Source of the DNA: Candidatus Latescibacterota bacterium
GTDB lineage: Bacteria; Latescibacterota; UBA2968
Length of the DNA stretch: 64,000 nt
NCBI GenBank assembly: GCA_965205975.1
Contig: OZ242195.1
Span: 3,030,656-3,094,655, forward strand
Reading direction: 5' to 3'
Position numbers and translations under genes: made by a program. Under the pieces are notes generated by a model. The model did no database searches. It was not told where the DNA came from and saw nothing but the letters and a program-made list of their open reading frames with translations. Positions 37,355 to 61,070 of this stretch are shown in pieces (the stretch's first letter is position 1; the number at the start of each line of letters is the position of its first letter).

Positions 37355-37513
37355 CTATCTCCTCAAACAAGGTCCTCTGATAACTCATTAACTGACATTA
37401 CGCATATATCGCCTGTCATCCCCATTTCATAGGCATGACAAGATATAGCGTTGCTGCGTAAGGTCAAATATATATTTTCGGAATCACCGTCGAAAACATG
37501 AGAAGTATAAACC

Positions 37514-37548
37514 AAAAAACCACGCCCAAAGGACGTGGTTTTTTATTT
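37514..37548. terminator. Bidirectional rho-independent terminator (A6-CCACGCCCAAAGGACGTGG-T6).
   Basis: GC stem with one mismatch, flanked by an A-run and a T-run. It sits just outside the left end of the IS element. Confidence 0.5.
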
Positions 37549-37619
37549 ATGAACTTGACCTGTTTTAGTTGATAACAGAATTAAACCCACTGGTCGAGTC
37601 CAAAAAGTTCTGTAAAATA

Positions 37620-38878
37620 GTAGCTCCGTGAAATAGGGGTCAGTGATTTTGTTTTAGGTACGTCATGTCCAGATAGCGTCTGCCTGTGATCCACTCATCA
37701 GACCATTCCATACACAACGCGCCGATGAGACGTTCACAAGCCTTCTGGTTGGGGAAGATCTGCACCACATCGGCACGTCTTTTGATCTCCCGGTTGAGTC
37801 TCTCCAACAGGTTGGTGGTACGAATGCGTCTTTGGTGCTGTTGTGGAAAGTGGAAGCAGGCCAGAGCATGGATAATATCCTGGTCTATCTTGTCCACGAG
37901 CTTGGGCAGTATCTCTTCATAGGTGTCCATCATAGCAGATAGGCGCGCTTGTGCAGTGGCCTGATCGGGGGCATTGAAAACGTCTTTGAGTGCTTGGGCA
38001 ACTTCGCGTTGATACTTAGGCGGTGTAATGCCTTTGACATTTCTGTGAAAATGGGTTTGACAATGCTGCCAAGAAGCCCCTTGAAAGTGTCGTTTGATGG
38101 CGTTTTGTAAGCCTTCGTGGTGGTCAGAGATAACCAGTTGCACACCCTTTAACCCACGCTTTTTAAGGTCTTTAAACAAATCCCCATACGTGGCTTCTGT
38201 CTCGGTGTGCGCCACGTCAATGGCCAAAATGTCGCGGTGCCCACTCTCTGCGATCCCAGAAACGATTAAGACGGCCTCAGAAGCGACCTGTCCTCGACTA
38301 CGGATGTGGAGATAGGTCGCATCAATGATCAGATAAGGGTATCCTTGCTCAAGGGAACGCCCCCGCCAGGCTTTAATATCTGCATCCAGGTCTTGACAAA
38401 GCTGTGAGACTTGGGACTTTGAAAAAGAGGTGCCACACAAGGCTTCTGTGATCTTTGTCACTTTGCGTGTGGAGACCCCTTGCAAATACGCCTCTTGAAG
38501 GGCAAGAATCAGTGCTTTTTCACTGCGTTGAAACCGTGAGAATAACGCACTGCTAAATCGTCCTTCCCGATCTTGAGGCACGCGCAGTTCGATACGGCCT
38601 ACGCGCGTCTTGAGGACACGAGGCTTATATCCGTTACGGTAGCCTGTCCGCTCGCCAGTTCTTTCATAAGGTTCTGCTTGTAAACACGACGTGATCTCGG
38701 CTTCCATAAACTGTTGCAGGAAGCGGGTGATGGCCTGATTGAGAAAATCAGGGTCATTCAAAAGTGCAAATTGCTCTGGCGCGGCAATTTTTATATCTTT
38801 GGGGTAAGTCATCGTAGCCTCCAAGGTTAGGGTTTATATTACTACTCACCCCTATTTTAAGATTTTTCTCGGAGCTAC
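37620..38878 (-). mobile_element. IS256-family insertion sequence (about 1.26 kb) with imperfect terminal inverted repeats.
   Basis: Left end GTAGCTCCGTGAAATAGGGGTCAG (37620-). Right end, as reverse complement, GTAGCTCCGAGAAAAATCTTAAAATAGGGGTGAG (-38878). A single mutator-type transposase ORF lies inside. No matching 8-bp target duplication is visible. Confidence 0.75.
37640..38824 (-). CDS. IS256-family (mutator-type) transposase.
   Basis: 394 aa. The N-terminal LNDPDFLNQAITRFLQQFMEAEITSCLQAEPYERT...YRNGYKPRVLKTRVGRIELRVPQDR and central DATYLHIR...VLIVSGI are characteristic of the IS256 transposase family. Confidence 0.85.
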   Translation of the reverse strand: MEATMTYPKDIKIAAPEQFALLNDPDFLNQAITRFLQQFMEAEITSCLQAEPYERTGERTGYRNGYKPRVLKTRVGRIELRVPQDREGRFSSALFSRFQRSEKALILALQEAYLQGVSTRKVTKITEALCGTSFSKSQVSQLCQDLDADIKAWRGRSLEQGYPYLIIDATYLHIRSRGQVASEAVLIVSGIAESGHRDILAIDVAHTETEATYGDLFKDLKKRGLKGVQLVISDHHEGLQNAIKRHFQGASWQHCQTHFHRNVKGITPPKYQREVAQALKDVFNAPDQATAQARLSAMMDTYEEILPKLVDKIDQDIIHALACFHFPQQHQRRIRTTNLLERLNREIKRRADVVQIFPNQKACERLIGALCMEWSDEWITGRRYLDMTYLKQNH

Positions 38879-39363
38879 GGTGACTTTTTTTCCTTTTTAC
38901 AGAAATTTAAGGACGCTATCTCCACTTCGTTGATCATGCGATAAACCACATCTCCAGATTTGTTGCGATCATAAAAACTCAATGGCAACTGGATCAAGTG
39001 GTCGAAAAGATGGCTCCTTATATCCAGCATCATGCGATTGTTTATCCAAGCAAATAGATAGTTTGAGCAAAAACCAATGATGATATTGCCGACTGTAACG
39101 CCCAGGAGCAGAAGCAAAATAAATATCAACAGCTCATAATCTTCATTTGGAAAAACATCATCAATGATAATTTTCATGATATAGGGAAAAGCCAACGAGC
39201 TAACAGTCCCCAGGATCATGAGAACAAAAACAATGCTTTGGTGTATCCAATAAGGTTTCAGAAATTTCAAGAAATGATAAAAGACATGTCCCTGCTTAGA
39301 GAGATTGAAAATGGCTGATATGACTGGTTGTTTGTTCTTCATATTCACCCGTGATGTAAACAA
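38875..39363 (-). pseudogene. Truncated ABC exporter gene. Only the N-terminal transmembrane domain fragment remains, and the reading frame runs into the IS256 right end.
   Basis: MKNKQPVISAIFNLSKQGHVFYHFLKFLKPYWIHQSIVFVLMILGTVSSLAFPYIMKIIIDDV...LPLSFYDRNKSGDVVYRMINEVE is the first about 150 aa of a type-I ABC exporter TMD. The TAG stop is formed by the IS terminal sequence ...GGAGCTAC. No ATPase domain follows. Confidence 0.7.
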
Positions 39364-39384
39364 CTCAAAGTGTGCGTATGCATA

Positions 39385-39572
39385 AGACGCTCTTTGCTCG
39401 ATAAGCTCAAGTAAACCATTCTCTCAAGCTCATATTCCCAAATGCTTGAGCTTTGAACTGTTGCCTGCCCGCGCCGTCGCACGGCAGGCAGGTCTGCCGC
39501 CAATATTCGACTTGCCAGGGTCTGTCGGCGGCTTTTTATATTTAGAAATCCGGACAAATAGATAACCGCGTA
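39385..39572. repeat. About 190-bp structured repeat, copy 1 of 3 (other copies at 43785-43993 and a shorter one at 51245-51354).
   Basis: Near-identical sequence cttgata(g/a)gctcaagtaaa(a)ccattctctca(a/g)gctca(t/c)attcccaaatgcttgagctttgaactg + ttgcctgcccgcg(c/t)cgtcgcacggcaggcagg + tctgccgccaatattcgacttgccagggtctgtcggcggcttttt. It contains GCTCAAG/CTTGAGC pairing segments, a long GC hairpin and a terminal hairpin followed by a T-run. Confidence 0.85.
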
Positions 39573-42074
39573 TCAATCCTCCCGCAGGGCATCTATTGGG
39601 CTTGCAGAGGCGACCTTCAGCGCGTGTACGAAGCCACCTAACAAGGGAAGTAGAATGCCTGCGAAAATCGCCGCTAAAATCGTCCCAACCCCAAATTGAA
39701 AACGGTAAGCAAATATCGAAAGCCACTCATCCATAAAGAAATAAGACAGCGGTAGCGCGATAACGGCGGCTACAAACCCGGGCACTGCGTAGTTTAGCAC
39801 GATCCCACTGGCTATTTTGGATGGCACAGCACCCATGACCCGTCGAATGGCAATTTCCTTTCGCCTGCGCGCCACTGCCAGAGAGATCATGCCCAGGGCA
39901 CCCATTGACGCGATGAGAACAGCGCACAAAGCCGCCCCTGAGACGATTTTGCTCCAACTGATTTCTCTGGCATAAAATTTTTGTCTTTCATCTTCTATAT
40001 AAGAAAATCTCAAGGGGTGCTCTGTTTTAAGGTCTTCCCATACGCTTGTGAGATACGTACCAAAGGCTTCGGCACTGCCCTCTCGAATCCGAATCAATAT
40101 CTCTGCCGAGAAGGCACGTTGCAAAGTTGCATCCGTGCCTACGGTGATGATCGTCGGTGAAACCTTATGGCTCAAGTCTCTAACGTGAAAATCCTTAACG
40201 ACACCCACGATGCGACCACTGACATCACTGCCAAACACGCGCGATCTTAACTTTTCTTCTGCTGGACTGATCACCTCTCCGATAGGGTCTGACAACCGCA
40301 GATGCTTTTGAAAGACTTCATTTACGATCACATCGCCAGGCATCGGATTGGGATACAATGATCTCCCCTGCAAGAGTTGCAACCCAACCGTCTCGAGAAA
40401 AGGCCCCTTCACTTGATAATAGGTGACCTCATCTATGAGATTACCATGGCTATCTTTTATCAGGACTGAGTTTGACCAACCGAACGGCAAGTTCGTCCGT
40501 GCAGAGGATGCCACGAGCGGAGACGCAGATAAAGACGCTTGCAGGCGCCCCATCTCATTTTCGGTCAACCTACCCGTTTCGAGCCTGACCAGGTTCGCAG
40601 GTTCAAAGCCCGGCTCTGCCGTAAGAACAAAAAAAGTCTGTTCAAAGATGATGATCGTGCAAAAGACAAACACCAATGTCACACCCGATTGAACAGCCAT
40701 CAATACCTTCAAAAAGGGACCAGACCTGACTACCTTTGCTGTTTTGCTCAAAACGATGAGGGCAGATACAGACGACATAAAGGTCGCCGGATAAATGGCT
40801 GTGCCCAGACCAATCAGACAGGCAAGCGAAAGAATAATGGTCGCGGTCTGAACGGGATCTACTAAAGACGTAAAGGGGGTCCGCAAAACACCTTCAAGAG
40901 GACTTGAAGCCAACTCTGCAACCATCAATCCAATAACACAAGCCAACAGGCTGTATCCAAAGCATTCGACCAATAGCTGGTATCTGAGTTGCCGCTGGTT
41001 CGCACCAAAAATTTGCCTGATGCCCAATTCTTTGGTGCGTGAATTGAACCGTGCCACGTAGAGCAACACGTAATTCAGACACGCGACAGACAGAATTAGG
41101 ACACTGATACCGCTGAGAATATATCCATACAAAGGGTTGGTGCCAGGACGCACACCTTGGCTGCCCCCCCCCGACCCACTATGACTATGATGGTGCAACT
41201 CTGTGATGGGTTGAAGTTTGGCCCTTAAGGTCTCCAAATCCCAGAACGGGTTAGCGGGGTAATTTTGGATGATCCGTGTGAGCTTTCTCTCCACTTCCTT
41301 TATGTTGGCTTCGTCTGCCAGACGTATATAATGTGTGGATGTAAAATCCCAGCCCCGTCCACCTTCTTGCTTGTCGAGAAAGGTTGACGACATACTCAAG
41401 GGCAACAGAATCTCAAAATCCAGACTTGAATTTAGGGGAGGCGTTTCCACAATGCCCTCTATTTTTACAGGGACCACTGCTTTTTTTGTCGGGTTAAAAG
41501 ATAAAGACAATTTCGGAGGTGGTTGTATCCATAACACTTGACCTACTAAATTGCCAATATTGTTGGAAAGCGTCTGAGCGAATGCGCGTGTTATTGCGAC
41601 TTGCCCTGGACGTGAGAGGAATGTACCATGAATAAGCGGGAATGAAAAAATCTCCACGAAACTCCTATCTACCAACACGACCTTATCTATATCTCTCAGA
41701 AAATCTTTGTGAGTACCTACGTGCCAAATTCTCATATCAGGATGGGAAAAGGCACCAAGTATACGGGTTGTGGCCTCGATCTCAGGAATCTCGGCAGACA
41801 TCGCCGATGCCAATGAAACTGGAAAACTGGTAGGCTCAGCTCCTGTGCCCGCCAGAGGACCCATACCTATTTGTCTGAACTTTGCCTTCCCAGTAATGCG
41901 GTATATGCGATGATGGTCTTTGTGGAACTTATCAAAGCTCCAATCATACAGGACGTAAAGCACGCAAAGATAGGTGCAGGCAATCCCTATCCCCAAACCC
42001 AGCAGGTTAATGGCGGCATACGTTTTATATTTGAGAGCATTGCGAAACCAGGTTCGGAAATAATTGAAAAGCAT
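39573..42074 (-). CDS. FtsX-like ABC-transporter permease with a MacB-like periplasmic domain, duplicated 8-TM type (paralog 2).
   Basis: 833 aa. Starts directly with TM1 MLFNYFRTWFRNALKYKTYAAINLLGLGIGIAC. There are two FtsX-type 4-TM bundles, each preceded by a large extracytoplasmic domain. About 70-75% identical to 43994..46474. Confidence 0.8.
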   Translation of the reverse strand: MLFNYFRTWFRNALKYKTYAAINLLGLGIGIACTYLCVLYVLYDWSFDKFHKDHHRIYRITGKAKFRQIGMGPLAGTGAEPTSFPVSLASAMSAEIPEIEATTRILGAFSHPDMRIWHVGTHKDFLRDIDKVVLVDRSFVEIFSFPLIHGTFLSRPGQVAITRAFAQTLSNNIGNLVGQVLWIQPPPKLSLSFNPTKKAVVPVKIEGIVETPPLNSSLDFEILLPLSMSSTFLDKQEGGRGWDFTSTHYIRLADEANIKEVERKLTRIIQNYPANPFWDLETLRAKLQPITELHHHSHSGSGGGSQGVRPGTNPLYGYILSGISVLILSVACLNYVLLYVARFNSRTKELGIRQIFGANQRQLRYQLLVECFGYSLLACVIGLMVAELASSPLEGVLRTPFTSLVDPVQTATIILSLACLIGLGTAIYPATFMSSVSALIVLSKTAKVVRSGPFLKVLMAVQSGVTLVFVFCTIIIFEQTFFVLTAEPGFEPANLVRLETGRLTENEMGRLQASLSASPLVASSARTNLPFGWSNSVLIKDSHGNLIDEVTYYQVKGPFLETVGLQLLQGRSLYPNPMPGDVIVNEVFQKHLRLSDPIGEVISPAEEKLRSRVFGSDVSGRIVGVVKDFHVRDLSHKVSPTIITVGTDATLQRAFSAEILIRIREGSAEAFGTYLTSVWEDLKTEHPLRFSYIEDERQKFYAREISWSKIVSGAALCAVLIASMGALGMISLAVARRRKEIAIRRVMGAVPSKIASGIVLNYAVPGFVAAVIALPLSYFFMDEWLSIFAYRFQFGVGTILAAIFAGILLPLLGGFVHALKVASASPIDALRED

Positions 42075-42124
42075 TGGTTACCCTTGGCAATCAAGAGACG
42101 CTTGATCTCAGCTAACTTTCGCCA

Positions 42125-43219
42125 TTAGCTGGTAGGGGTTTCAGGAGGGCCAATAAGACGATATACCCTGATCCTACCATTCGTATTCTCGTTATCTGTC
42201 GGAGATAAATACCTATATACAAACATCCCATAACAATTAAAAACATCGTTTACACCCAGTTCGTTTTTTATTTTTTCTGCATAAGGCTCTCCACTCGGAT
42301 CTGATAGAAGTATCAGAGCTGTGCTATTTGATGAATCATTGAATAGATATCTGAGCAACATATCTCCCGAAGATAAGAGATGCATGCCGTTCAAGCGGCT
42401 GAAATTGTGTATATCACTTGCCAATTCTTTCTGAGTTTTGCTATCGTCCATTTTAAAGCGAATAAACTTAGGCTGACTCATGGTAATGGGCTTAAGAAAA
42501 CGTTGTGTTATCAAATCAATTCGCATAACCTTCTCTTCCCAGGGCAGGACAAAGTGTATGATTTTTCGCGCTTCGTCATAAGCAAGCCCTTGAAAACGCT
42601 GCAACATAAAAAATAGGTCCATGTATTGTGCATCACAGACTTTGAACTTTACGATATCTTTACCTGTTTCAAGTGAGGTGACGCAAAGCATACCGTTTTT
42701 GTCTTTGTCAACGTAAGTATGAATAAAGTTTTGATCTTCAGAAACCATCATGCGATTAATGAAACGTCTCTCCGGCAGTTTCAATTGTCCTAAAAATTCA
42801 CCTTTGATCGAGAATCGAAGAATCTGCCCGGCTCCCGCATCGTAGATCAGCATTTGGTCGGTATTCGGTATCATTGTTGGCTCTCGCGGTATCTTGTACT
42901 GGCCTTCCATACCCCCTCGGTTGCCGATAGACCACTTGTAGTTACCCTCTCTGTCAAAAACTTCGACACTCCTTCTCAAGCCATCTAAAACAATGATATA
43001 GTCCTTCACAACTGTGATAGAACTTACTACCCCAAGTCCTGGCCTCATCTCCGGGAATTCGAGTGTAATCTCGTCAACCAATGAAAGTTGCGTTCCTTGC
43101 GCTTGCTTAAGGACGACCTCTTCTTGCTGGTTTTCAACAGCACTTTTTTCGCAACTTCCAAAGATAAGAAAGAAGAGTGCCATCAATCTCACAGGGGCTA
43201 ATAACTTTTTTCGATTCAT
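42125..43219 (-). CDS. 6-bladed beta-propeller lipoprotein (paralog 2).
   Basis: Lipobox LIFGSC. Repeated about 45-aa blade-like units (VVKDYIIVLD...VFDREGNYKW...). Paralogous to 46525..47652. Confidence 0.6.
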   Translation of the reverse strand: MNRKKLLAPVRLMALFFLIFGSCEKSAVENQQEEVVLKQAQGTQLSLVDEITLEFPEMRPGLGVVSSITVVKDYIIVLDGLRRSVEVFDREGNYKWSIGNRGGMEGQYKIPREPTMIPNTDQMLIYDAGAGQILRFSIKGEFLGQLKLPERRFINRMMVSEDQNFIHTYVDKDKNGMLCVTSLETGKDIVKFKVCDAQYMDLFFMLQRFQGLAYDEARKIIHFVLPWEEKVMRIDLITQRFLKPITMSQPKFIRFKMDDSKTQKELASDIHNFSRLNGMHLLSSGDMLLRYLFNDSSNSTALILLSDPSGEPYAEKIKNELGVNDVFNCYGMFVYRYLSPTDNENTNGRIRVYRLIGPPETPTS

Positions 43220-43556: not shown

Positions 43557-43766
43557 CTAGCCGCACGTAATAGTCTCCTCGTCATTATAGAAAATGTGAA
43601 GGCAGCTAGTATCGCACGTCACACTTCCCTCACATTGAATACAATCAAAGTAATGTGCTCCGTAAGAGTCTGTAAACCAATAATCAAGGCGGCTTCCACT
43701 GCCCTCATATCCATAGATACGCGGAGAAGACAGCCGAGACTGCACAGGCTTTGTCAAAGTTTTCAT
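43557..43766 (-). CDS. Small Cys-rich peptide (69 aa), putative precursor/bacteriocin-like peptide (paralog 2).
   Basis: MKTLTKPVQSRLSSPRIYGYEGSGSRLDYWFTDSYGAHYFDCIQCEGSVTCDTSCLHIFYNDEETITCG. Strong RBS AAGGAGGTGATA. The N-terminal about 25 residues are conserved with the peptide at 47826..48023, and the C-terminal part is divergent and Cys-rich. Confidence 0.6.
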   Translation of the reverse strand: MKTLTKPVQSRLSSPRIYGYEGSGSRLDYWFTDSYGAHYFDCIQCEGSVTCDTSCLHIFYNDEETITCG

Positions 43767-53863: not shown

Positions 53864-53903
53864 CCTAAATTAGCCAAGTGATCTCTGTCCAAGTTCTATT
53901 GAT

Positions 53904-54137
53904 TTAATAGCCGTCATGTGCAAATACATACACATACCAAGAGGCCTGTTCTGGTCCTACCCCATTAGGGGGAGCTTCACAACCCCAAATTTTAGCGAGT
54001 CGAGTCACTTCTTGCTGGGCTTCCCTCTTAGAATTATAATGCGCCACAGTCTTCCAGTTTCTGAAGGAGCGGAACCTGGAACGCCAATATCGCTTTCGCT
54101 CGTCGGGATCCATCGTAATTCCAACTCGACAGGCCAT
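53904..54137 (-). CDS. Small basic hypothetical protein (77 aa) immediately 3' of the radical-SAM gene.
   Basis: ORF only, with reasonable codon usage. No recognisable family. Confidence 0.3.
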   Translation of the reverse strand: MACRVGITMDPDERKRYWRSRFRSFRNWKTVAHYNSKREAQQEVTRLAKIWGCEAPPNGVGPEQASWYVYVFAHDGY

Positions 54138-54154
54138 CTTTATCTCTTTATGGT

Positions 54155-55594
54155 TTACGAGGTTATTTCCAGATTATATCGTCGCTGCAACAAAGACGCA
54201 TCCTCTTCTGCAATCTCCATACACATCTCCATCGCCAGTTCATAGCGATAACGTGTCTGTTCACAAGCAACAGGGTTGGGGTACATCGGGTCCCCCGTCG
54301 TCGTCCGAGCATCCCAAAGACATCCACCACCACACAGATTGCGCGCCCAGCATGTCTTGCACTCTGGGCGATTATTCACATTGAACTGCGCGTCAAAATG
54401 CTGCTGCTTTTCGCGATCAATACCCACAAACACATCACCCATCTTAAACTCGGGTGCATCGGCCAGACTCGAGCAAAAATAAATTGATCCATCTGCTGCA
54501 ATAGCCAGATACTGCTTACCACCCAGGCATCCATGACAGGATTTTGCGCGCGTCAGCAATTTCTGAATCCGCGGATCAAACTCTTCACTCTCTTCACCAT
54601 TCAGAATAGCTTTGAGCGCACGGCGGCTCCGCCTGTAAATTTGTTGTTTCAAAACAGGTATGTGTTCTTCCCGAATGGCATAAGGCGCATCGGGGGAGAC
54701 AACCGCCGGACCGATGAGCGCGTTATCAGTACCCAATGAGCGCAAATCATCGGCAATCTCATCCTCATCCATATCATACGCTGTCATAATAGCTTGCAGG
54801 TACACGCGCTCAGGTGCCTCAGCAGTCAATTTCTGTACATTCTTTGCCACGACATCATAAGTACCAGAACCATTGTGAAACTTGCGAATACGGTCCTGTG
54901 TCTTACGTCCGCCATCCAGGCTGACTTTAATTTGAAACTTTTCATCGATCAAGAACTGCTTCATCTCGTCGGTCAACAGCGTGCCATTGGTCACAATGCC
55001 AAAACCAACCTGCACTCCCAGGCACGCGCCCAGAGATTTGGCAAATGGGACAAGCTCTCTCATCAATGGAAAATTCAGAAGCGGCTCCCCGCCAAAAAAA
55101 TCAATCTGGCACCGCCCCAAAGCCTGAGCTTCGGTGATGATCCAGCGTATCGATTGCTCGGCAACATCGGGTTGCATCAGCATCGCCTTACCGCCATAAT
55201 CCCCGCCATGTGCAAAGCAATAAGCACACTGAATATTGCATGTATGCGAAACGTGCAGCGACACCTGCAAACGATCTGTCTGTGATACCCCACAAGCTGC
55301 CACCCCTTCTGTCGTCGGCACCTGGGACACCAGAAGCAATGCACCATCCGCAATCAACCCCACCTGTGCCAATTCCTCAATAGCCTCGGCAATTTCCTCT
55401 GCCTCGTATTGATCGGCCAACGTCTGGACAACCTGTGAAGCAGATAAGCCCTCGCAACATTCTAAAATTGATTTGAAAAGGGGATCCAGTTCAAAAAACA
55501 GACCTGTCTCAATCTGATAGACAATCGGCTGATTTTGCTCTTCAGTTTGAAAAAGATGTATGTCGCATTTCTGAATGCATAGCATGCCAGGCAC
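54155..55594 (-). CDS. Radical SAM / SPASM-domain enzyme (peptide-modifying maturase or anSME-like).
   Basis: CNIQCAYC (CxxxCxxC) radical-SAM cluster motif. C-terminal SPASM cysteine array CHGCLGGKQY...FCSS...CKTCWARNLCGGGCLWD. 479 aa. Confidence 0.8.
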   Translation of the reverse strand: MPGMLCIQKCDIHLFQTEEQNQPIVYQIETGLFFELDPLFKSILECCEGLSASQVVQTLADQYEAEEIAEAIEELAQVGLIADGALLLVSQVPTTEGVAACGVSQTDRLQVSLHVSHTCNIQCAYCFAHGGDYGGKAMLMQPDVAEQSIRWIITEAQALGRCQIDFFGGEPLLNFPLMRELVPFAKSLGACLGVQVGFGIVTNGTLLTDEMKQFLIDEKFQIKVSLDGGRKTQDRIRKFHNGSGTYDVVAKNVQKLTAEAPERVYLQAIMTAYDMDEDEIADDLRSLGTDNALIGPAVVSPDAPYAIREEHIPVLKQQIYRRSRRALKAILNGEESEEFDPRIQKLLTRAKSCHGCLGGKQYLAIAADGSIYFCSSLADAPEFKMGDVFVGIDREKQQHFDAQFNVNNRPECKTCWARNLCGGGCLWDARTTTGDPMYPNPVACEQTRYRYELAMEMCMEIAEEDASLLQRRYNLEITS

Positions 55595-55613: not shown

Positions 55614-55790
55614 TTACTCAGGCTGATCAAAATTGTCCCAATCGTCATCATCAGGGAACGGCATGGGGGGAACAGTAATAGGATAAGGGGTACAGCCAAC
55701 TTCAAAACTATCCGTCGTCTGATATGTGCTAATACCACCCTCTTTATCCATTGTTCCATTGATCAAGATCAACTTGCGTCGAGTCGTCAT
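55614..55790 (-). CDS. Unannotated 58-aa ORF, putative precursor peptide for the adjacent radical-SAM/SPASM enzyme.
   Basis: GGAGGATAAT-ATG RBS. Translation MTTRRKLILINGTMDKEGGISTYQTTDSFEVGCTPYPITVPPMPFPDDDDWDNFDQPE. Ends 20 nt before the rSAM start codon. Below the 60-aa cutoff of the ORF track. Confidence 0.55.
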   Translation of the reverse strand: MTTRRKLILINGTMDKEGGISTYQTTDSFEVGCTPYPITVPPMPFPDDDDWDNFDQPE

Positions 55791-55849: not shown

Positions 55850-55864
55850 GCAAGATCCGTGCCT
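55850..55864 (-). promoter_or_regulatory. Sigma-54 (-24/-12) promoter upstream of the peptide and rSAM operon.
   Basis: The minus strand reads AGGCACGGATCTTGC, which fits GG-N10-GC with TTGC at -12 (consensus TGGCAC-N5-TTGC). About 60 nt upstream of the peptide ATG. Confidence 0.55.
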
Positions 55865-55880: not shown

Positions 55881-55920
55881 AAAAAAAAGCACTTAAAAAC
55901 TCTCAAGTGCTTGAAAAAAC
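55881..55920 (-). terminator. Rho-independent terminator downstream of the sigma-54 activator gene.
   Basis: On the minus strand, AAGCACUUGAGAGUUUUUAAGUGCUU followed by U8. Flanked by A/T runs on both sides. Confidence 0.6.
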
Positions 55921-55970
55921 AAGGAAATAAAATTTAAAAATTATTTGTACTGTAAATGCGGCATCCAGAT

Positions 55971-55999: not shown

Positions 56000-56103
56000 C
56001 CGTTCATTTAGATAAAATATGCATAACCGATTGATTAATATAAAAATAAATTAAAGTGCATCTAAATGATACATTATTGTAAAATGATACACCCATTCAA
56101 CAT

Positions 56104-59100
56104 CTATCTCAACCCCAGACGATTCATCTTTCTATACAAGCTGGCGCGCACCAACCCCAGTTCTTCGGCCGTACGCTTAATATTACCCTCGTATTTTTCG
56201 AGCGCATCCATAATCAACCGTTTCTCATACTCCTGCATACTATCTTTTAAATGTCCCTGGTATTCGACAGAGACACCCGACATCGCGTGGCCGACAGCTT
56301 CCGAAAACAAATCGGGCGTAATTGCACCATCTTCTTCTACCAATGCAACCGCACGCCGAATCTCATTCTCCAACTCGCGCACATTACCCGGCCAGTTGTA
56401 ATTTGTAAGTGCCCTGATTGCACCTACTGTCAGCCCGCCAACCGACTTGTTTGCCTCTTCCTTTGCCCGAATGAGCAAATGTTCGGCCAATAACGGCACA
56501 TCTTCCATGCGTTCTCGTAAAGGCGGCATATCGATCTGAATCACGTGCAACCGATAATACAAATCTTCGCGGAAAGAGCCTTTTTCTACTTCTTTTTTTA
56601 AGTCTCGATTGGTCGCTGCAATAATGCGTACATCTACTGCGCGATCCTCTGTTTCTCCCACACGCCTAATCTCTCCTTCTTGCAACACCCGCAACAAACT
56701 CCTTTGCAATGGTGGCGGGGCATCGCCGATTTCATCTAAAAAGACCGTACCCCCATTAGCCGTCTCAAAAACCCCCTTATGATCTTCAGTCGCGCCAGTA
56801 AACGCCCCTTTTTTATGACCAAACAACTCACTCTGCAACAGCTCTGGTGAAAGGGCAGCACAATTTTGCGACAAAAAACGCTGGTCTTTACGTGTACTAT
56901 TGTAGTGTATGGAACGCGCAGCTAATTCTTTGCCAGTACCTGTTTTGCCTTGCACAAGCACGGGAATATCGCTTTTTGCCGCACGTTCTATAAGCCGGTA
57001 GATCGCCTGCATCGCATCACTTTGCCCAAACAGATCGCCAAGCTGGTGCTGTCTTTCGACCTCTTGCTGCAAATATCGCGCTTTCTCTTCCAATTGTTCG
57101 TACATCCTCGCATTGACCAGTGCTACACCCACCAGATTCGCAAATGCTTGTAAAAACGTCTGGTCTGCTTCAGAAAATGCGTTGCCTATGCCGCGATGAT
57201 CCACATATAGGGCACCCATTACACCTTCGCTAACATGAAATAGAGGCACACACAATACAGACCGAATGTTGTAGTCTATCACACTCTGATATTGATTTAG
57301 CCTATCGTCTGTTTGTGCATCAAGGCTCAAAACGGGTTCATTTGTTTCAATAACCCGACGAATAATACCCCCACTCAATTCTTCTGCATCATTCGATTCT
57401 AAATTGTGGTGGCGCACCACATCAACTACAAAGTCTTTTGGAGTCTCATTTTTAATCGCAACAATCACCCGCTCTGCTGAATAGACAGCCAACAAATTGC
57501 CCAAAGTTCCATCCAATAGCACCTTGACATCGTGCTCTGTTGTTAATTCCTGGCTCATATCATAGAGCAAATTCCAACGATCAACAGACAACGCACCAAC
57601 TGGAACCTCAGAACTGGATACGGTATCCTCACCGCGATGGAGCGTTGGAGCGGCATCCCTGCCGCGACCATCTTCGTCGCGAGATAATTGATTTAATAAC
57701 ACCTGTGTTTTCTCCAAAAAATAGGACATTTCCATTTCCTCAAACGCCTGTTTTGCCGCTTCGAGATGTGCTTGCGCTTTTGGCATATCATCGCGCTGGA
57801 GATAAAACTCCCCAGCCATCAGCAATGCCCGCGCCCAGTGGTCGCCTTTGGATTCTCTGCGACATTCAATTGCCTGCTCAAAAGCCTCTTCAGCCTCAGC
57901 AATTCGCCCTGCCTGAGCAAAAGCCGCACCAATACCGCAATATACCAGGGGCAATATGCCTGTGTACATACCCGATATTTGTTGCGTACCTTCTTTGGCT
58001 TTTTCAGCCCATTCAAGTGCTGTTTCACCATTTCCCATTCTCGCAGCAGCCGTTGCCGCAATTGCATAAGCGCGATAGATATAATCTTTTCGCGGTGTTT
58101 CCAAAAATCGCTCTGATGAAATCTCGGCATATTCCAATGCCTCGGCAAAATCATCGCGTTCCAGAGCCAATTCCCCAAGCCATAGGAAATTTGCTGCTTC
58201 CCAATACACACCCCCTCGCTTCTGCCACTCACCAATGACCTCATAACAAACGGCTTCAGCACCATTGAAATCCCCCAAATAAAAATAAATTCTTTGAAGT
58301 GCATTGAGTGCCCAAACGCGATGGTGCTCTAAACCAAGTTGTCTAAAGATCTTTACAACAGTTTCTAAATAGCCCTTAGCTGTCTCAAATCGAAATTCCA
58401 CTAATGCGGCCTGGCCTTCTCGTCCTTGTATAAAAGCCTGGTTTTGTGGATCTCCCGACTCACGGAGTTTCTCTATTTCCCGACGCATATACGCAATTGA
58501 TTCTTCGTGCCGACCAGACACATCACACAAATAAGACAAGCTGCTTAACGCCTGAATTTCGCCATCGAAATCACCGAGTTCACGATAAAGCTGCAATGCC
58601 TCCAGCATATATCCTTCTGCAATTTCACCATGTTGAAGTACGCTGTGAATCTCACCCTGGTCGTTTAAAATACGCGCTTTCAAATCTTTCCGATCAGCGG
58701 GCAATAATGCATTTGCTTCGTCTAAAAGTTTTAGTGCGCAATTGTATTCACTACAATTGCGAAACACATCTGCATAATCGCACAAAAAATCGATAGCATC
58801 TGCAGGTAATTCAAAAACGTCATCCGCTGTCCAGTCCCTCACTGCCTCGAACCGTCTCAATGCCTGGCGATACGCTTGTACCTCCAATGCTTTTTTACCC
58901 GCCAGACACATATATTTCACAGCCTTATCTCGTTCTTCTGCCGCCGCAAAATGATCCGCCAATTCTTCCGTCAATTCTTCTGCATCACCCGTCTCTTCCA
59001 GAGCATTGCCAATTTCTCGATGCAACAGACGCCGCCGCACATCTTGCATGCGGTCATAAATTGCACGCCGACACAAATCCTGTGAAAATCGATAGCGGTC

Positions 59101-60186
59101 TTCATCCTCTCCACAAGCAGCCAAAAGCCCTTCCGCAATCAAGTCATCCAGCATATCCAGCAATTCTAACTCATCACCGCGCCAAACTGCAGCCAATAAT
59201 TCGAAAGAAAAATCACTTAAAAAAACACAGGCGTATTCCAGCACCCGCTGTTGCATAGCAGGCAGGGTTGCTATGCGCCTGTACAAAACCTCTGAAAAGT
59301 CATTGGATAATAATGTTTCGGGAAACTCTCCCCACTGCCAATCGCCAGACACATCTTGCCGAACCACATCGGCATGCACCAGTGTCCTTATCGCCTCCAC
59401 GACAAACAGGGGTTGTCCGCCTGTTTCTCTGAACAGGGTTTGCAATGCATCCGACGGTATGGATCGCTCCCCTAACATCGACGCCGCTAAATATCCCACC
59501 TCTTCTTGTTGTAGATACTCCAACTGCATCTGGGTCGCTTCAGCAAATTCATTACTATGTATAAAATTCTCAATTTCCTCTGAAAGCGGTTCCAGATTAG
59601 ACCATCGGCAAGTCAGACATAACAAAAACGGGCACGGTTCTGGATCGCGCAACACATACTGCAAAAATTCCAGAGTCAATTCATCAAGCCATTGAATATC
59701 TTCCAAACACAACACAATGGGCTGTTTCTGTCGCAGACTTTTTAGTAACTGCAACCAGCGCTCCATAACAGAAAACTTGTCGGTCTCTAATGAATCGGGC
59801 AACTCTGCCATCAAATCCGTCGTCCCTTGAAAAGCCCTGATCAACGCACCGTATATTTGTCCGCCCTCTTCCTGCCCTGCGCCCTTCAAACATAGAAAAT
59901 CGTGGATCAGAGCGTCGCCCAACAGTTCTTCGGCCAGTCTCGATTTACCTACTCCCGCCTCACCCGAGATCAAAACCACGCGCTGCTTGCCAGCCTGTAC
60001 ATCCTGTAACATCGCACTCAGTATCTTCATTTCAGATTCCCGCCCGACAAATTGTGGGCGCACAACTTTTCTATGCACATCGCGCTGCTCGTCCTCCAGC
60101 AGCACAAGCTCCGATGGTAAGGCACGTACCAGTTCCTCTGCCGACTGATAACGATCAACACGCTCCTTTGCCAGCAACTTCAGCAC
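56104..60186 (-). CDS. Sigma-54-dependent transcriptional activator with a giant N-terminal sensor: STAND/AAA ATPase, TPR-like array, GAF, sigma-54 AAA+, Fis-type HTH. It is the C-terminal 1360 aa of a frameshift-split kinase fusion.
   Basis: P-loop VVLISGEAGVGKSRLAEELL. A long TPR-like helical-repeat region. GAF-like segment about residues 880-1030. Sigma-54 interaction domain VLVQGKTGTGKELAARSIHYNS...GAFTGA...GGTVFLDEIGD. C-terminal HTH IKRTAEELGLVRASLYRKMNRLGL. The first residues LKLLAKERVDRYQSAEELVRAL are the end of a protein-kinase domain. Confidence 0.75.
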   Translation of the reverse strand: MLKLLAKERVDRYQSAEELVRALPSELVLLEDEQRDVHRKVVRPQFVGRESEMKILSAMLQDVQAGKQRVVLISGEAGVGKSRLAEELLGDALIHDFLCLKGAGQEEGGQIYGALIRAFQGTTDLMAELPDSLETDKFSVMERWLQLLKSLRQKQPIVLCLEDIQWLDELTLEFLQYVLRDPEPCPFLLCLTCRWSNLEPLSEEIENFIHSNEFAEATQMQLEYLQQEEVGYLAASMLGERSIPSDALQTLFRETGGQPLFVVEAIRTLVHADVVRQDVSGDWQWGEFPETLLSNDFSEVLYRRIATLPAMQQRVLEYACVFLSDFSFELLAAVWRGDELELLDMLDDLIAEGLLAACGEDEDRYRFSQDLCRRAIYDRMQDVRRRLLHREIGNALEETGDAEELTEELADHFAAAEERDKAVKYMCLAGKKALEVQAYRQALRRFEAVRDWTADDVFELPADAIDFLCDYADVFRNCSEYNCALKLLDEANALLPADRKDLKARILNDQGEIHSVLQHGEIAEGYMLEALQLYRELGDFDGEIQALSSLSYLCDVSGRHEESIAYMRREIEKLRESGDPQNQAFIQGREGQAALVEFRFETAKGYLETVVKIFRQLGLEHHRVWALNALQRIYFYLGDFNGAEAVCYEVIGEWQKRGGVYWEAANFLWLGELALERDDFAEALEYAEISSERFLETPRKDYIYRAYAIAATAAARMGNGETALEWAEKAKEGTQQISGMYTGILPLVYCGIGAAFAQAGRIAEAEEAFEQAIECRRESKGDHWARALLMAGEFYLQRDDMPKAQAHLEAAKQAFEEMEMSYFLEKTQVLLNQLSRDEDGRGRDAAPTLHRGEDTVSSSEVPVGALSVDRWNLLYDMSQELTTEHDVKVLLDGTLGNLLAVYSAERVIVAIKNETPKDFVVDVVRHHNLESNDAEELSGGIIRRVIETNEPVLSLDAQTDDRLNQYQSVIDYNIRSVLCVPLFHVSEGVMGALYVDHRGIGNAFSEADQTFLQAFANLVGVALVNARMYEQLEEKARYLQQEVERQHQLGDLFGQSDAMQAIYRLIERAAKSDIPVLVQGKTGTGKELAARSIHYNSTRKDQRFLSQNCAALSPELLQSELFGHKKGAFTGATEDHKGVFETANGGTVFLDEIGDAPPPLQRSLLRVLQEGEIRRVGETEDRAVDVRIIAATNRDLKKEVEKGSFREDLYYRLHVIQIDMPPLRERMEDVPLLAEHLLIRAKEEANKSVGGLTVGAIRALTNYNWPGNVRELENEIRRAVALVEEDGAITPDLFSEAVGHAMSGVSVEYQGHLKDSMQEYEKRLIMDALEKYEGNIKRTAEELGLVRASLYRKMNRLGLR

Positions 60187-60961
60187 AATTTGTTGCGTCT
60201 CTTCGGGAACAGCGATATTGAACTTCGCCTATTGGTGGAGGTGACTCTCGAATATGCTTCATAATAACAGATATGGGATTTTGTCCAGAAAAGGGCGATG
60301 CGTCCGTGAGGACTTCGTATAAAATCACACCCAATGAGTACAAATCTGACCGATGATCCACCCACAACCCCTTACCCTGCTCTGGCGACATATATTCTGC
60401 CGTACCAATCGTTGCACCCGTCTGAGTAATGGAAGCACTGTGCAAATGTCTGAATTTCGCCAATCCCAGGTCCAGAATCGTGGTTTCAATCCCCTCTTTT
60501 GTCTCCAAAACCATAATATTGGATGGCTTGAGATCGCGATGCACTGCACCCTGAGCGTGGACATAAGCCAATCCATCGGCAATTTGTTGTATCAAGTCAA
60601 AAAAGTGAGACGTCCGGAATTGCTCTAACAGTACACGATCGGCAATAATTTTTTCCAATGTCTTTCCGGGCAAATATTCCATTGTAAAATAGGGACGGTC
60701 TTTGGCAAAGCCCCAGGTGTATGTGCGAACCAGACGCGGGTGCTGGAATCGGTTCAACACCTGAAACTCTCTGTGAAAACGACGGCGCACAGCCTGCTCA
60801 TCCATCATTTCATTCAAAATTTTGAGCGCGCAATCCCGATCTTGCTCCAGGTCCAAAACCCGATACACTTCACCCATGCCCCCGGCTCCCAGGTGCGCCT
60901 GGATCTGGTATCTTTTGTCGAGAATTGTGCCAATTTCGAACATACGCGTTATTCTTTGCAA
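60155..60961 (-). CDS. Ser/Thr protein kinase catalytic domain (Hanks-type), N-terminal part of the same gene as 56104..60186, across a frameshift.
   Basis: GAGGMGEVYRV...ALK (ATP-binding Lys), HRDLKPSNIM, DLGLAKF and GTAEYMSPEQ. The last about 20 residues of this frame are non-kinase-like. The kinase C-lobe end (AKFNIAVPEETQQIVLKLLAKERVDRYQSAEEL) continues in the frame of the downstream ORF. Confidence 0.8.
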   Translation of the reverse strand: MQRITRMFEIGTILDKRYQIQAHLGAGGMGEVYRVLDLEQDRDCALKILNEMMDEQAVRRRFHREFQVLNRFQHPRLVRTYTWGFAKDRPYFTMEYLPGKTLEKIIADRVLLEQFRTSHFFDLIQQIADGLAYVHAQGAVHRDLKPSNIMVLETKEGIETTILDLGLAKFRHLHSASITQTGATIGTAEYMSPEQGKGLWVDHRSDLYSLGVILYEVLTDASPFSGQNPISVIMKHIRESPPPIGEVQYRCSRRDATNCAEVAGKGAC

Positions 60962-61070
60962 GTTTTGATTGATATGTGAGATTAATAATGCGTAAGATTC
61001 AGAATTTTTTCAACCTTTTTGGCGACACGGGGCGCAGTTTGTTCTGTTGTATTTTTCAGACCCATCAATT

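What the first reader, a model, noticed from the sequence alone, without database searches (positions are those of the whole stretch)
37355..61000. ~23 kb lower-GC segment bounded on one side by IS256: probable horizontally acquired peptide-modification/export island
Base composition drops visibly from GC-rich coding sequence (before 37.35 kb and after about 61 kb) to AT-rich coding and very AT-rich intergenic regions across 37.4-61 kb.

The segment starts at a bidirectional terminator and an IS256-family element. All of its genes are on the minus strand and are functionally coherent: precursor-like peptides, rSAM, subtilase, carrier protein, sugar-modifying enzymes, thioredoxin, permeases and a dedicated regulator.
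Basis: partly seen in the sequence, partly recalled or inferred. Interest (0 to 1): 0.65.

Follow-up and report, generated by a model that had tools for sequence, protein, structure and literature searches.

The report
Relocated peptide-maturation gene island, partly decayed
A 23.7-kb AT-richer block lies between two conserved genes of an uncultured Latescibacterota bacterium and carries two linked, uncharacterised modified-peptide gene sets; it is a real accessory island, but it comes from the clade's own flexible gene pool and is damaged here.

Summary
GC falls from 0.536 to 0.454 (1-kb windows, p=9e-11). GC3, codon usage, tetranucleotide usage and GC skew all deviate.

In seven related Latescibacterota genomes, homology to the window stops at 37,363 and resumes at 61,097. 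Two of them have the TRAP permease and CoA-transferase genes 20-100 bp apart, so the segment is an insertion at a variable hot spot.

The cargo has two modules.
- Module A: a giant kinase/sigma-54 activator, a conserved sigma-54 promoter, a 58-aa one-Cys acidic precursor, and a CteB/QhpD-like radical SAM/SPASM enzyme.
- Module B: an ACP-like protein, an S8-protease-DUF1611 fusion, a redoxin, two [Cys-rich peptide / beta-propeller lipoprotein / FtsX permease] units, and an ABC exporter.

The two modules occur linked (L091, L092) or apart in relatives, at other loci. Their divergence is about the same as the core genome's, and they are low-GC there too. This favours relocation or exchange within the clade over recent import from a distant donor.

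IS256 is not the vehicle. It truncates the exporter, has no target duplication, and the rhodanese and MauE genes are missing. The activator carries a 1-nt frameshift, and the AraC-type regulator is missing. Functions are inferred, not shown.

The parts
37364..37596 (.). Intergenic segment with a bidirectional terminator (37,513-37,545). It is an alternative upstream 'haplotype' of the CoA-transferase gene, not island cargo.
   Evidence: The terminator was found. Parts of this segment (to about 37,544-37,604) are shared with L004, L008, L009 and L018, but not with L003/5/6/7/10/13/15.
37597..38924 (-). IS256-family insertion sequence, about 1.33 kb, with an intact 394-aa transposase at 37,640-38,824.
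   Evidence: NF033543 scores 374.6 bits (cut-off 150) and PF00872 gives 4e-126. The right end ...GGACGCTATC is the same as in the L009 and L083 copies. Imperfect terminal inverted repeats are present and there is no 8-bp target duplication. The left end is approximate.
38925..39363 (-). 5' remnant of the MsbA/QhpF-type ABC exporter gene (first ~146 of ~589 codons).
   Evidence: PF00664 matches residues 44-148 only. The remnant is 87-91% identical to the N-terminus of the full-length 589-aa exporters in L001, L002, L081 and L088.
39405..39545 (-). Three-hairpin intergenic repeat, copy 1. Copies 2 and 3 are at 43,826-43,965 and 51,249-51,352.
   Evidence: The repeat is island-specific in the window. 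It is also present inside the module-B cassettes of L001, L002 and L081. There is no Rfam match.
39573..42074 (-). FtsX/MacB-type duplicated permease 1 (833 aa, no ATPase domain).
   Evidence: PF02687 and PF12704 match; TIGR03434 (ADOP) scores 203 bits, below its cut-off.
42125..43219 (-). DUF5128 six-bladed (NHL-like) beta-propeller protein 1, a probable lipoprotein (inferred from the signal-like N-terminus ...IFGSC).
   Evidence: PF17170 scores 43 bits. The PDB matches are NHL-repeat propellers. The N-terminus is shown.
43557..43766 (-). pepB1, a 69-aa precursor with a conserved leader (MKTLTKPV...SPRIYGYE) and a Cys-rich variable core.
   Evidence: An 88%-identical orthologue sits in the same position in L088-L090. 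A conserved palindrome and a strong RBS lie upstream.
43994..46474 (-). FtsX/MacB-type permease 2, part of the ~4.4-kb tandem duplicate unit.
   Evidence: Direct repeats at 72-79% identity with 4,400-4,421-nt spacing.
46525..47652 (-). DUF5128 beta-propeller protein 2, a probable lipoprotein.
   Evidence: PF17170 scores 49 bits.
47826..48023 (-). pepB2, a 65-aa precursor with the same leader and a different core (2 Cys).
48112..48834 (-). Redoxin (AhpC/TSA-Redoxin fold, CQPC motif) with a hydrophobic N-terminal segment suggesting a membrane anchor (inferred).
   Evidence: PF00578 and PF08534 match. The CxxC motif is at residue 101.
48978..50879 (-). Cytoplasmic subtilisin (S8, QhpE-like) fused to a full DUF1611 (TM0796-like P-loop) module.
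   Evidence: NF049966 QhpE scores 140.7 bits (cut-off 165); TIGR04066 scores 122.9 (cut-off 200). Triad residues D20, H53 and S197 and the GxxxxxGKxT motif are invariant in 47 homologues. The AF2 model has pLDDT 88 and matches subtilisin plus PDB 2G0T.
50914..51207 (-). ACP-like 97-aa protein (DSI serine motif).
   Evidence: Weak hits to ACP families, all below cut-off. It is always adjacent to S8-DUF1611 in relatives.
51355..52722 (-). NDP-sugar dehydrogenase.
   Evidence: TIGR03026 scores 303 bits (cut-off 190).
52862..53863 (-). DUF354 protein.
   Evidence: PF04007 scores 41 bits. It is paired with the dehydrogenase in L081, L091 and L092.
53885..54154 (-). Junction filler holding orf77 (53,904-54,137). 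It replaces about 2.6 kb (a 302-aa gene, a small ORF and an RR/AraC regulator) that is present in L092, and a larger block in L091.
   Evidence: Collinearity breaks at 53,884 and 54,155-54,167. orf77 has no family hit.
54155..55594 (-). Radical SAM/SPASM peptide maturase with an N-terminal PqqD-like RRE.
   Evidence: CX3CX2C at residue 119 and a C-terminal CX2CX5CX3C. PF04055, PF05402 and PF13186 match. The best PDB match is CteB 5WGG (1.7e-61, full length). SCIFF 266, QhpD 255 and PapB 224 bits are all below cut-off.
55614..55790 (-). pepA, a 58-aa precursor with a conserved leader, one conserved Cys, and the PFPDDDDWDNFD tail.
   Evidence: Only 11 cluster representatives were found among 1.84 billion.
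55850..55864 (-). Sigma-54 (-24/-12) promoter, AGGCACGGATCTTGC.
   Evidence: GGCACG-N4-TTGC lies at the same position upstream of pepA in L082 and L083.
55887..55912 (-). Terminator between the activator gene and the pepA promoter.
   Evidence: conserved in L082 and L083.
56104..60943 (-). Ser/Thr-kinase / AAA_16 (STAND) / TPR / GAF / sigma-54 activator / HTH regulator, split by a 1-nt (T) insertion at about 60,222.
   Evidence: Domains. Orthologues are single ORFs of 1,610-1,622 aa in L082, L083 and L084. The frame change is shown and the inserted base.
61069..61096 (.). Right junction. Island homology with L083 ends at 61,068 and host homology begins at 61,097. The last ~8 codons of the TRAP permease gene are replaced.

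Best explanation
Window 37,364-61,096 is a genuine accessory island. It sits in a hypervariable gap between the TRAP fused-permease gene and the double CoA-transferase gene of a Latescibacterota chromosome. Its cargo is a RiPP-type supercluster from the clade's own flexible gene pool. It arrived at this site by relocation or intra-clade exchange, not by recent import from a distant low-GC donor, and it has since been damaged.

How the cargo most likely works (inferred, not shown):

Module A. The kinase/STAND/GAF/sigma-54 activator binds palindromes upstream of a conserved -24/-12 promoter and switches on pepA plus the radical SAM gene. The CteB/QhpD-like radical SAM/SPASM enzyme holds the pepA leader with its PqqD-like domain. 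It then links the single conserved Cys by a thioether to an acceptor residue, most plausibly in the conserved acidic PFPDDDDWD tail. The product would be ranthipeptide-like.

Module B. The pepB precursors have a conserved leader (MKxLTKP...IYGYE) and hypervariable cores with mostly even numbers of Cys. The cytoplasmic QhpE-like subtilisin domain would trim them. The fused DUF1611 P-loop module and the ACP-like protein would add an unknown nucleotide- or acyl-dependent step. A C39-less ABC exporter would export the peptide. The membrane redoxin, with MauE/DoxX and rhodanese in intact copies, would fold it oxidatively outside the cytoplasm. Each peptide variant comes with its own propeller lipoprotein and FtsX permease, which most likely give variant-specific self-protection or handling.

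State in this genome. An IS256-associated deletion removed most of the exporter gene plus the rhodanese and MauE genes. The AraC-type regulator and a 302-aa gene were deleted. The sigma-54 activator is frameshifted. The island is probably at least partly non-functional.
For: Insertion. Seven relatives (L003, L005, L006, L007, L010, L013, L015) lose homology at 37,363 and regain it at 61,097. L010 and L013 have the two genes 20-100 bp apart.

Hot spot. Relatives carry other cargo at the same gap: an M28 peptidase, TPR/GWxTD proteins, or M16 peptidases with a C39-ABC transporter, HlyD and PpiC.

Composition..

Clade-internal origin. The best homologues of S8-DUF1611 (88-94% aa) and of the radical SAM enzyme (87-90% aa) come from sequence sets that include contigs syntenic with Latescibacterota genomes. 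In genome OZ244847, module B lies at 0.69 Mb and the CoA-transferase gene at 4.8 Mb. Module B there is 89-91% identical to the window and core genes are 91-92% identical. Module B is low in GC in relatives as well.

Supercluster. L092 and L091 are collinear with the window across both modules. Module A occurs alone in L082, L083 and L084. Module B occurs alone in L001, L002, L088-L090 and L093.

Decay..

Module A wiring..

Module B logic. The catalytic triad and P-loop are conserved. The fold is confirmed. A pepB-like leader also occurs in a Melioribacteraceae locus next to a radical SAM gene, S8-DUF1611 and an ACP. The maturation genes are about 88-94% identical between loci, while the propeller is 56-67%, FtsX 66-73%, and the peptide cores are hypervariable.

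Precedent. In the qhp operon, a radical SAM enzyme makes thioethers, a subtilisin removes the leader, and a C39-less ABC transporter exports the product (PMC7876137).
Against: - Nothing shows how the segment moved. There is no integrase, tRNA, att repeat or target duplication.
- The rest of the source genome is unseen, so I cannot tell relocation from a second copy or from exchange with a sister strain.
- No relative closer than about 94-95% nucleotide identity was found, so the insertion cannot be dated.
- The frameshift may be a sequencing error. Related contigs look like long-read assemblies, and the low-coverage L092 also has a split activator.
- All biochemical roles are inferred from homology below curated cut-offs. 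The DUF1611, ACP-like, DUF354, propeller and FtsX roles are guesses.
- pepA has only one Cys, and its acceptor residue is unknown.
Confidence: 0.68

Rival explanations
1. One reading: a recent horizontal import from a distant, lower-GC donor, delivered by or with IS256.
For: Composition deviates strongly. The segment is absent from the orthologous site in relatives. An intact IS256 sits at one edge.
Against: The closest copies of every cargo gene are in the same clade, at core-like divergence and at other loci. The low GC is a stable property of the cassette in those genomes. IS256 interrupts a cargo gene, has no target duplication and lies on one side only. Independent IS256 insertions occur near the same terminator in L009.
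Confidence: 0.12
2. Ancestral segment. The cluster was originally at this site and was lost, independently or once, in the relatives sampled.
For: The gap is variable and holds different cargo in different genomes. The cluster is old in the clade.
Against: Relatives across a range of divergence (80-95% nucleotide identity) share the same breakpoints at 37,363 and 61,097. Two have a nearly empty, intact junction with the normal TRAP C-terminus, whereas only the window has an altered TRAP C-terminus. Module B has a recurrent different home locus, between M16-M16-TPR and a pectate-lyase-like gene, in L001 and L088-L090.
Confidence: 0.12
3. Assembly artefact: two unrelated regions were joined at the repeated IS256 element.
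For: IS elements are common assembly breakpoints. The L009 contig ends inside this IS.
Against: Both outer flanks (TAXI-TRAP on one side; CoA-transferase, SnoaL, GFO and sulfatase on the other) are neighbours in seven relatives, so the two sides of the IS belong to one locus. The right junction has no repeat.
Confidence: 0.04
4. Functional rival for module B: the pepB peptides are signalling or quorum peptides. They would be sensed through the AraC-type response regulator, and FtsX/propeller would act as a sensing or uptake module rather than immunity.
For: A response-regulator/AraC gene heads the cassette in most relatives. A conserved palindrome precedes every pepB gene.
Against: Hypervariable cores together with co-varying propeller and permease 'alleles' fit antagonism and immunity better. 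No sensor kinase is present in the cassette.
Confidence: 0.15

Closest known systems
qhp operon maturation machinery of quinohemoprotein amine dehydrogenase: QhpD radical SAM, QhpE subtilisin, QhpF ABC exporter, QhpR AraC regulator (PMC7876137)
   Same: A radical SAM/SPASM enzyme with high similarity to QhpD (255 bits). A cytoplasmic pro-domain-less subtilisin whose best family is QhpE (141 bits, full model length). A C39-less MsbA-type exporter. An AraC-type regulator in relatives. A small Cys- and Asp/Glu-rich peptide substrate. The order of events would be crosslink, then leader removal, then export.
   Different: All scores are below the equivalog cut-offs. There are no QhpA, QhpB, QhpC or QhpG homologues and no dehydrogenase. 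The subtilisin is fused to DUF1611 and paired with an ACP-like protein. The peptides are hypervariable. Propeller lipoproteins and FtsX permeases are present.
SCIFF/ranthipeptide systems (CteB-thermocellin, PapB-freyrasin)
   Same: Module A's enzyme aligns over its full length with CteB (5WGG, 1.7e-61). It has an RRE, a CX3CX2C motif and a SPASM domain. A short precursor gene lies directly upstream. antiSMASH already reports 'ranthipeptide' and 'RRE' clusters in sponge Latescibacterota MAGs (PMC12993501).
   Different: The precursor has one Cys instead of six (SCIFF) or CX3D repeats. It belongs to a very small new family (11 representatives). The module is controlled by a 1,600-aa kinase/STAND/sigma-54 activator. 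It is below the NCBIfam cut-offs for SCIFF, PapB and QhpD.
TIGR04066 / TIGR04068 (CcpM) peptide maturation cassette, defined in silico in NCBIfam; from my recollection it also includes the ACP-related family TIGR04069
   Same: There is a DUF1611-type TIGR04066-like module next to an ACP-like protein and Cys-rich precursors. In a Melioribacteraceae locus the same trio sits beside a radical SAM enzyme.
   Different: Here the module is fused to an S8 protease. It scores 123 against a cut-off of 200. No hit to any ACP-related peptide-maturation family was returned. The usual Latescibacterota cassette has no radical SAM gene of its own. It adds a redoxin, MauE, rhodanese, a propeller and FtsX.
Genomic islands and IS-mediated adjacent deletion
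   Same: Deviant composition, a strain-specific insertion at a hot spot, and an IS without target duplication next to a truncated gene.
   Different: There is no integrase, tRNA or att site. The cargo is endemic to the clade rather than foreign.

Membership tests
Genomic island (accessory, site-specific insertion) | Base composition and codon usage differ from the flanking chromosome | tested here: met
   (p=9e-11 for GC; p=1e-6 for GC3; tetranucleotide correlation 0.43-0.66 against 0.78-0.94).
Genomic island (accessory, site-specific insertion) | Absent from the orthologous site in related genomes | tested here: met
   No recovered related locus carries it at this site. Seven show TRAP and CoA-transferase adjacent or nearly so, with breakpoints at 37,363 and 61,097.
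Genomic island (accessory, site-specific insertion) | Integration machinery or signature (integrase, tRNA target, flanking direct repeats) | tested here: not met
   No tRNA. No flanking direct repeats. No integrase among the ORFs. The only mobility gene is one internal-edge IS256.
Recently acquired foreign DNA | Closest relatives lie in another lineage, or divergence is far lower than that of the core genome | tested here: not met
   The closest copies are in Latescibacterota, at 84-94% nucleotide identity. That is similar to the core (about 91-92% for the same genome, OZ244847).
IS256 family insertion sequence | DDE 'Mutator'-type transposase above the family cut-off | tested here: met
   NF033543 374.6 bits (cut-off 150); PF00872 421 bits.
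IS256 family insertion sequence | Terminal inverted repeats and an 8-bp target-site duplication | tested here: inconclusive
   Imperfect inverted repeats with indels were found. The right terminus is fixed by comparison with L009 and L083. No target duplication is present, which fits deletion or recombination after insertion.
Ranthipeptide/SCIFF-type radical SAM RiPP | Radical SAM CX3CX2C, a SPASM auxiliary-cluster domain and an RRE | tested here: met
   motifs; PF04055, PF13186, PF05402; CteB, 1.7e-61.
Ranthipeptide/SCIFF-type radical SAM RiPP | Score above the curated equivalog cut-off (SCIFF, PapB, QhpD) | tested here: not met
   266/425, 224/340 and 255/453 bits.
Ranthipeptide/SCIFF-type radical SAM RiPP | Thioether crosslink formed on the adjacent precursor | not testable with these tools
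   The only support is a conserved Cys and acidic tail in 11 of 12 family members.
TIGR04066-type peptide maturation cassette | TIGR04066 protein above cut-off, with ACP-related partner and Cys-rich precursor families | tested here: not met
   TIGR04066 scores 122.9 bits (cut-off 200) over positions 3-245 of 361. The ACP-like protein and the pepB peptides hit no peptide-maturation family model. The gene neighbourhood is analogous.
qhp (QHNDH) system | QhpA/B/C structural genes and QhpG, together with QhpD/E/F | tested here: not met
   Only QhpD-like, QhpE-like and MsbA-type (QhpF-like) components are present, and the QhpD-like and QhpE-like scores are below cut-off. No dehydrogenase subunits are present.

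The most novel reading that the evidence does not exclude
Module B may not be a bacteriocin system. It could be a maturation pathway for a crosslinked or disulfide-locked small subunit that docks into its cognate beta-propeller lipoprotein. That would be a periplasmic peptide/propeller holo-protein, analogous to the gamma/beta subunits of quinohemoprotein amine dehydrogenase or the small/large subunits of methylamine dehydrogenase.

The parts list parallels the Qhp and Mau machineries: a QhpE-like protease, a QhpF-like exporter, an AraC-type regulator like QhpR, a MauE membrane protein with a MauD-like redoxin, a propeller partner, and a Cys/Asp/Trp/Tyr-rich peptide. The DUF1611/ACP pair would add a new cofactor-forming or acylation step.
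Probability: 0.08. Interest if true: 0.8.

Novelty: new variant of a known kind. Interest (0 to 1): 0.42.

Why it matters
As an island, it is ordinary: a flexible-genome block at a hot spot, reshaped by an IS.

The value lies in the cargo and in the comparative frame.
- It defines a recurrent ~25-kb supercluster in Latescibacterota. This phylum includes sponge-associated members flagged as rich in unexplored biosynthetic clusters (PMC9426513, PMC12993501).
- It links a rare one-Cys precursor family and a CteB/QhpD-like radical SAM enzyme, under a giant kinase/sigma-54 activator, to a widespread S8-DUF1611/ACP system for which I found no experimental characterisation.
- That second system was found in Latescibacterota and in a Melioribacteraceae (Ignavibacteriota) genome.
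- Its peptide, propeller and permease units behave like swappable alleles.

The result gives concrete, testable precursor/enzyme pairs and intact reference copies (L092, L088) for expression work. It also cautions that low GC plus an IS does not by itself mean recent foreign acquisition.

Tried and rejected
- Rfam scan of 36.5-61.5 kb at E<=0.1 gave no match, so the hairpin repeat is not a known RNA.
- tRNA scan of the whole window found none.
- Search for flanking direct repeats or att sites and for an IS256 target duplication found none.
- Pfam and NCBIfam on pepA, pepB1, pepB2 and orf77 gave no family above noise.
- Literature searches for 'DUF1611 + radical SAM + peptide', for 'DUF5128' and for 'DgcN/DUF1611' found nothing usable. 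The idea that DUF1611 is an acyltransferase rests only on my recollection and is not used as evidence.
- A fold search of the S8-DUF1611 model returned subtilisins and the uncharacterised TM0796 (2G0T). It confirms the architecture but adds no function.
- I first read the module A/module B junction as unique to the window. I withdrew this after L091 and L092 showed the same linkage.
- None of the three island proteins searched (S8-DUF1611, radical SAM enzyme, pepB1) has an identical copy in the protein collection; best identities are 94%, 90% and 88%. The source genome is apparently not in it, so I could not test for a second copy in that genome.
- A relaxed sigma-54 consensus scan of the whole window is not enriched over chance (66 found, 70 expected). 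Only the site upstream of pepA is supported, and that support comes from its positional conservation.

Full report
OBSERVATION

The compositional drop is real and large. GC is 0.538 for 1-37,354, 0.454 for 37,355-61,000 and 0.513 for 61,001-64,000. One-kb windows give 0.454 +/- 0.026 for the island against 0.536 +/- 0.022 for the flanks (Mann-Whitney p=9e-11).

Other measures agree.
- Island genes have GC3 of 0.39-0.52, against 0.51-0.66 in the flanks (p=1e-6).
- Their codon usage correlates poorly with pooled flank genes (r from -0.02 to 0.81, against 0.71-0.88 for the flank's minus-strand genes).
- The tetranucleotide-usage-deviation correlation with the left flank falls from 0.78-0.94 to 0.43-0.66 across 40-56 kb.
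- The host's strong GC skew (-0.2 to -0.34) collapses to about 0 in 38-51 kb, although the coding strand does not change.

All credible genes are on the minus strand.

HOST AND BOUNDARIES

A scan of species-representative genomes with the flanking double CoA-transferase protein returned Candidatus Latescibacterota MAGs at 80-95% protein identity. Nucleotide and protein synteny show the following.
- In L003, L005, L006, L007, L010, L013 and L015, homology to the window stops at 37,363 and resumes at 61,097.
- In L010 and L013 the TRAP permease stop codon and the CoA-transferase start are only about 20-100 bp apart.
- L003, L005, L006 and L015 have one M28-peptidase gene in the gap. L007 and L004 have TPR/GWxTD proteins. 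L008 has M16 peptidases, a C39-ABC transporter, HlyD and PpiC.

So the gap is a hot spot of gene-content variation, and the 23.7-kb block is specific to the window. The last ~8 codons of the window's TRAP permease differ from those of all relatives. Island homology (to L083) ends at 61,068.

Because both outer flanks are neighbours in relatives, an assembly chimera at the IS is unlikely.

CARGO

Two modules are present.

Module A (54,155-60,943).
- It begins with a regulator of about 1,600 aa: Ser/Thr kinase, AAA_16/STAND, TPR, GAF, sigma-54 activator and HTH domains.
- A terminator follows, then palindromic upstream sites, then a -24/-12 promoter, AGGCACGGATCTTGC. The core GGCACG-N4-TTGC lies at the same position in L082 and L083.
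- Next comes the 58-aa pepA gene, then a radical SAM/SPASM enzyme with a PqqD-like RRE, CX3CX2C and CX2CX5CX3C motifs.
- The enzyme aligns over its full length with the SCIFF maturase CteB (5WGG, 1.7e-61). It scores 266 bits on the SCIFF model, 255 on QhpD and 224 on PapB, all below the curated cut-offs.
- pepA belongs to a very small family: 11 cluster representatives among 1.84 billion. Members share a conserved leader, one nearly invariant Cys and a conserved PFPDDDDWD(D/N)(F/Y)(D/E) tail.
- The regulator/pepA/radical SAM trio is conserved in other Latescibacterota (84-85% nucleotide identity). The regulator and radical SAM enzyme (54% aa) are also conserved in Gemmatimonadota, with a divergent peptide between them.

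Module B (38,925-51,207).
- It encodes an ACP-like protein, then a fusion of a pro-domain-less subtilisin with a complete DUF1611 module.
- The subtilisin's best family is QhpE (141 bits, cut-off 165). The catalytic residues D20, H53 and S197 are invariant.
- The DUF1611 module scores 123 bits on TIGR04066 (cut-off 200) and has an invariant P-loop-like GxxxxxGKxT.
- The AF2 model has pLDDT 88 and matches subtilisin plus TM0796 (2G0T).
- A CxxC redoxin follows, then two tandem ~4.4-kb units, each of [pepB peptide / DUF5128 NHL-like propeller lipoprotein / FtsX-MacB permease]. The two units are 72-79% identical.
- Last comes the first ~146 codons of an MsbA-type ABC exporter.

An NDP-sugar dehydrogenase and a DUF354 protein lie between the modules.

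The pepB peptides share the leader MKxLTKP...(S)P.IYGYE. They have hypervariable Cys-containing cores, mostly with two or four Cys. A conserved palindrome and a very strong RBS precede each pepB gene. The same leader type heads a 127-aa Cys-rich ORF in a Melioribacteraceae locus, beside a radical SAM gene, S8-DUF1611 and an ACP. This supports pepB as the true substrate class.

WHERE ELSE THE MODULES OCCUR

Module B alone has a recurrent home locus in relatives: M16-M16-TPR, RR/AraC, module B, rhodanese, MauE, then a pectate-lyase-like gene. This is seen in L001 and L088-L090, with a variant in L093. In genome OZ244847 it lies at 0.69 Mb, while that genome's CoA-transferase gene is at 4.8 Mb.

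Module A occurs alone in L082, L083 and L084.

The two modules are linked, collinear with the window, in L092 and L091 (and probably L081). The gene order there is: activator, pepA, radical SAM, a 302-aa gene, (...), RR/AraC, (a second dehydrogenase), DUF354, dehydrogenase, ACP, S8-DUF1611, redoxin, pepB, propeller, (FtsX), ABC, rhodanese, MauE.

ORIGIN

Against OZ244847, the conserved part of module B is 89-91% identical at nucleotide level and core genes are 91-92%. The cassette is low in GC (0.42-0.44) in every genome examined.

These two facts argue that the cluster has been resident in the clade for a long time and keeps its own composition. The window's copy therefore reflects relocation or intra-clade exchange into the hot spot, not recent import from a distant donor. 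No integrase, tRNA or att repeat explains the movement.

DECAY IN THE WINDOW

1. IS256 abuts codon ~146 of the exporter and has no target duplication. The rest of the exporter gene and the rhodanese and MauE genes are absent. A related contig (L009) has an independent, inverted IS256 about 23 bp from the same terminator. Deletion by recombination between two IS copies, or IS-mediated adjacent deletion, is therefore plausible.
2. About 2.6 kb present in L092 (the 302-aa gene, a small ORF and RR/AraC) is replaced by 270 bp holding the orphan orf77.
3. The activator is split by one extra T at about 60,222, relative to L082 and L083. This could be a sequencing error; low-coverage L092 also shows a split.
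4. On the gain side, the peptide/propeller/permease unit is duplicated. Unit 1 is 87% identical at nucleotide level to L088, and unit 2 only 74%. Between loci the maturation genes are 88-94% identical at protein level, the propellers 56-67% and the permeases 66-73%. The units therefore behave like swappable alleles.

MECHANISM (INFERRED)

Module A is a sigma-54-controlled, ranthipeptide-like system. The single Cys of pepA is probably crosslinked to an acceptor in the acidic tail.

Module B follows the logic documented for the qhp operon: cytoplasmic modification, leader removal by a dedicated subtilisin, then export through a C39-less ABC transporter (PMC7876137). It adds extracytoplasmic thiol chemistry (redoxin, MauE/DoxX, rhodanese). 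The variant-specific propeller/FtsX pairs I interpret as immunity or handling factors.

The roles of DUF1611, the ACP-like protein, DUF354 and the sugar dehydrogenase remain open.

COMPARISON AND NOVELTY

The island as such is a known kind of thing. The radical SAM module would probably be labelled 'ranthipeptide/RRE' by standard tools, as already reported for sponge Latescibacterota (PMC12993501). Its precursor family and regulator architecture are new variants.

The S8-DUF1611/ACP system is related to the in-silico TIGR04066 cassette but fails its cut-offs, and I found no characterised member. It is not a member of the qhp, SCIFF or PapB families by curated thresholds.

VERDICT

Interest is moderate, and it lies in the cargo and the comparative frame rather than in the island itself.

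Noticed in passing
window 39405-39545, 43826-43965, 51249-51352: A 110-135-nt intergenic repeat folds into three stacked hairpins (z about -2.3 to -2.7). It lies just downstream of genes and occurs only inside the island in this window. Several copies also occur inside module-B cassettes of L001, L002 and L081. There is no Rfam match.
   Followed up: partly
window 53904-54137: orf77 (MACRVGITMDPDERKRYW...WYVYVFAHDGY) sits exactly in the 270-bp filler that replaces about 2.6 kb present in L092. It has no Pfam or NCBIfam hit. It may be a small selfish or junction gene.
   Followed up: partly
window 43767-43860 and 48024-48115; also upstream of pepB genes in L001, L002, L081, L088: A conserved palindrome (TTTTACTTGAGCCTATCAAGTAAGG) and an unusually strong RBS (AAAGGAGGTGATA) precede every pepB gene. 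The palindrome is a candidate operator for the AraC-type response regulator, which is missing from the window.
   Followed up: partly
TRAP-to-CoA-transferase gap in L003-L015 (window equivalents 37363/61097): The gap is a hot spot with at least five alternative contents across related genomes: empty, an M28 peptidase, TPR/GWxTD proteins, FtsX plus TPR, or M16 peptidases with C39-ABC, HlyD and PpiC.
   Followed up: partly
L083 4508-20700: In another Latescibacterota contig, module A lies in a separate low-GC island (GC 0.38 downstream of it). That island carries two GmrSD-type genes, a ParE/PhdYeFM pair and an IS256 end remnant, and is flanked by TPP-enzyme gene fragments.
   Followed up: no
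L009 1-160: An independent IS256 insertion in the opposite orientation lies about 23 bp from the same terminator upstream of the CoA-transferase gene. The IS family is active in the clade and repeatedly hits this spot.
   Followed up: partly
window 61071-61096: The TRAP fused-permease gene ends ...LVQRQARAIHLN* in the window but ...LVQKRVAT* in all relatives. The island junction rewrote the last codons.
   Followed up: yes
window 9900-18400 and 25370-30170, plus strand: Long plus-strand ORFs here have poor codon-usage correlation with the other flank genes (r 0.26-0.42), while the local GC skew stays like that of minus-strand coding. They may be shadow ORFs of minus-strand genes. This was not examined.
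   Followed up: no
L086 (Melioribacteraceae) 17960-18314 and 21205-21381: Three small Gly-rich peptides (MKELT.../MKTLTG...) with GG-like motifs lie near MauE/thioredoxin and ABC genes in the same neighbourhood as the S8-DUF1611 system. They may be additional bacteriocin-type precursors.
   Followed up: no
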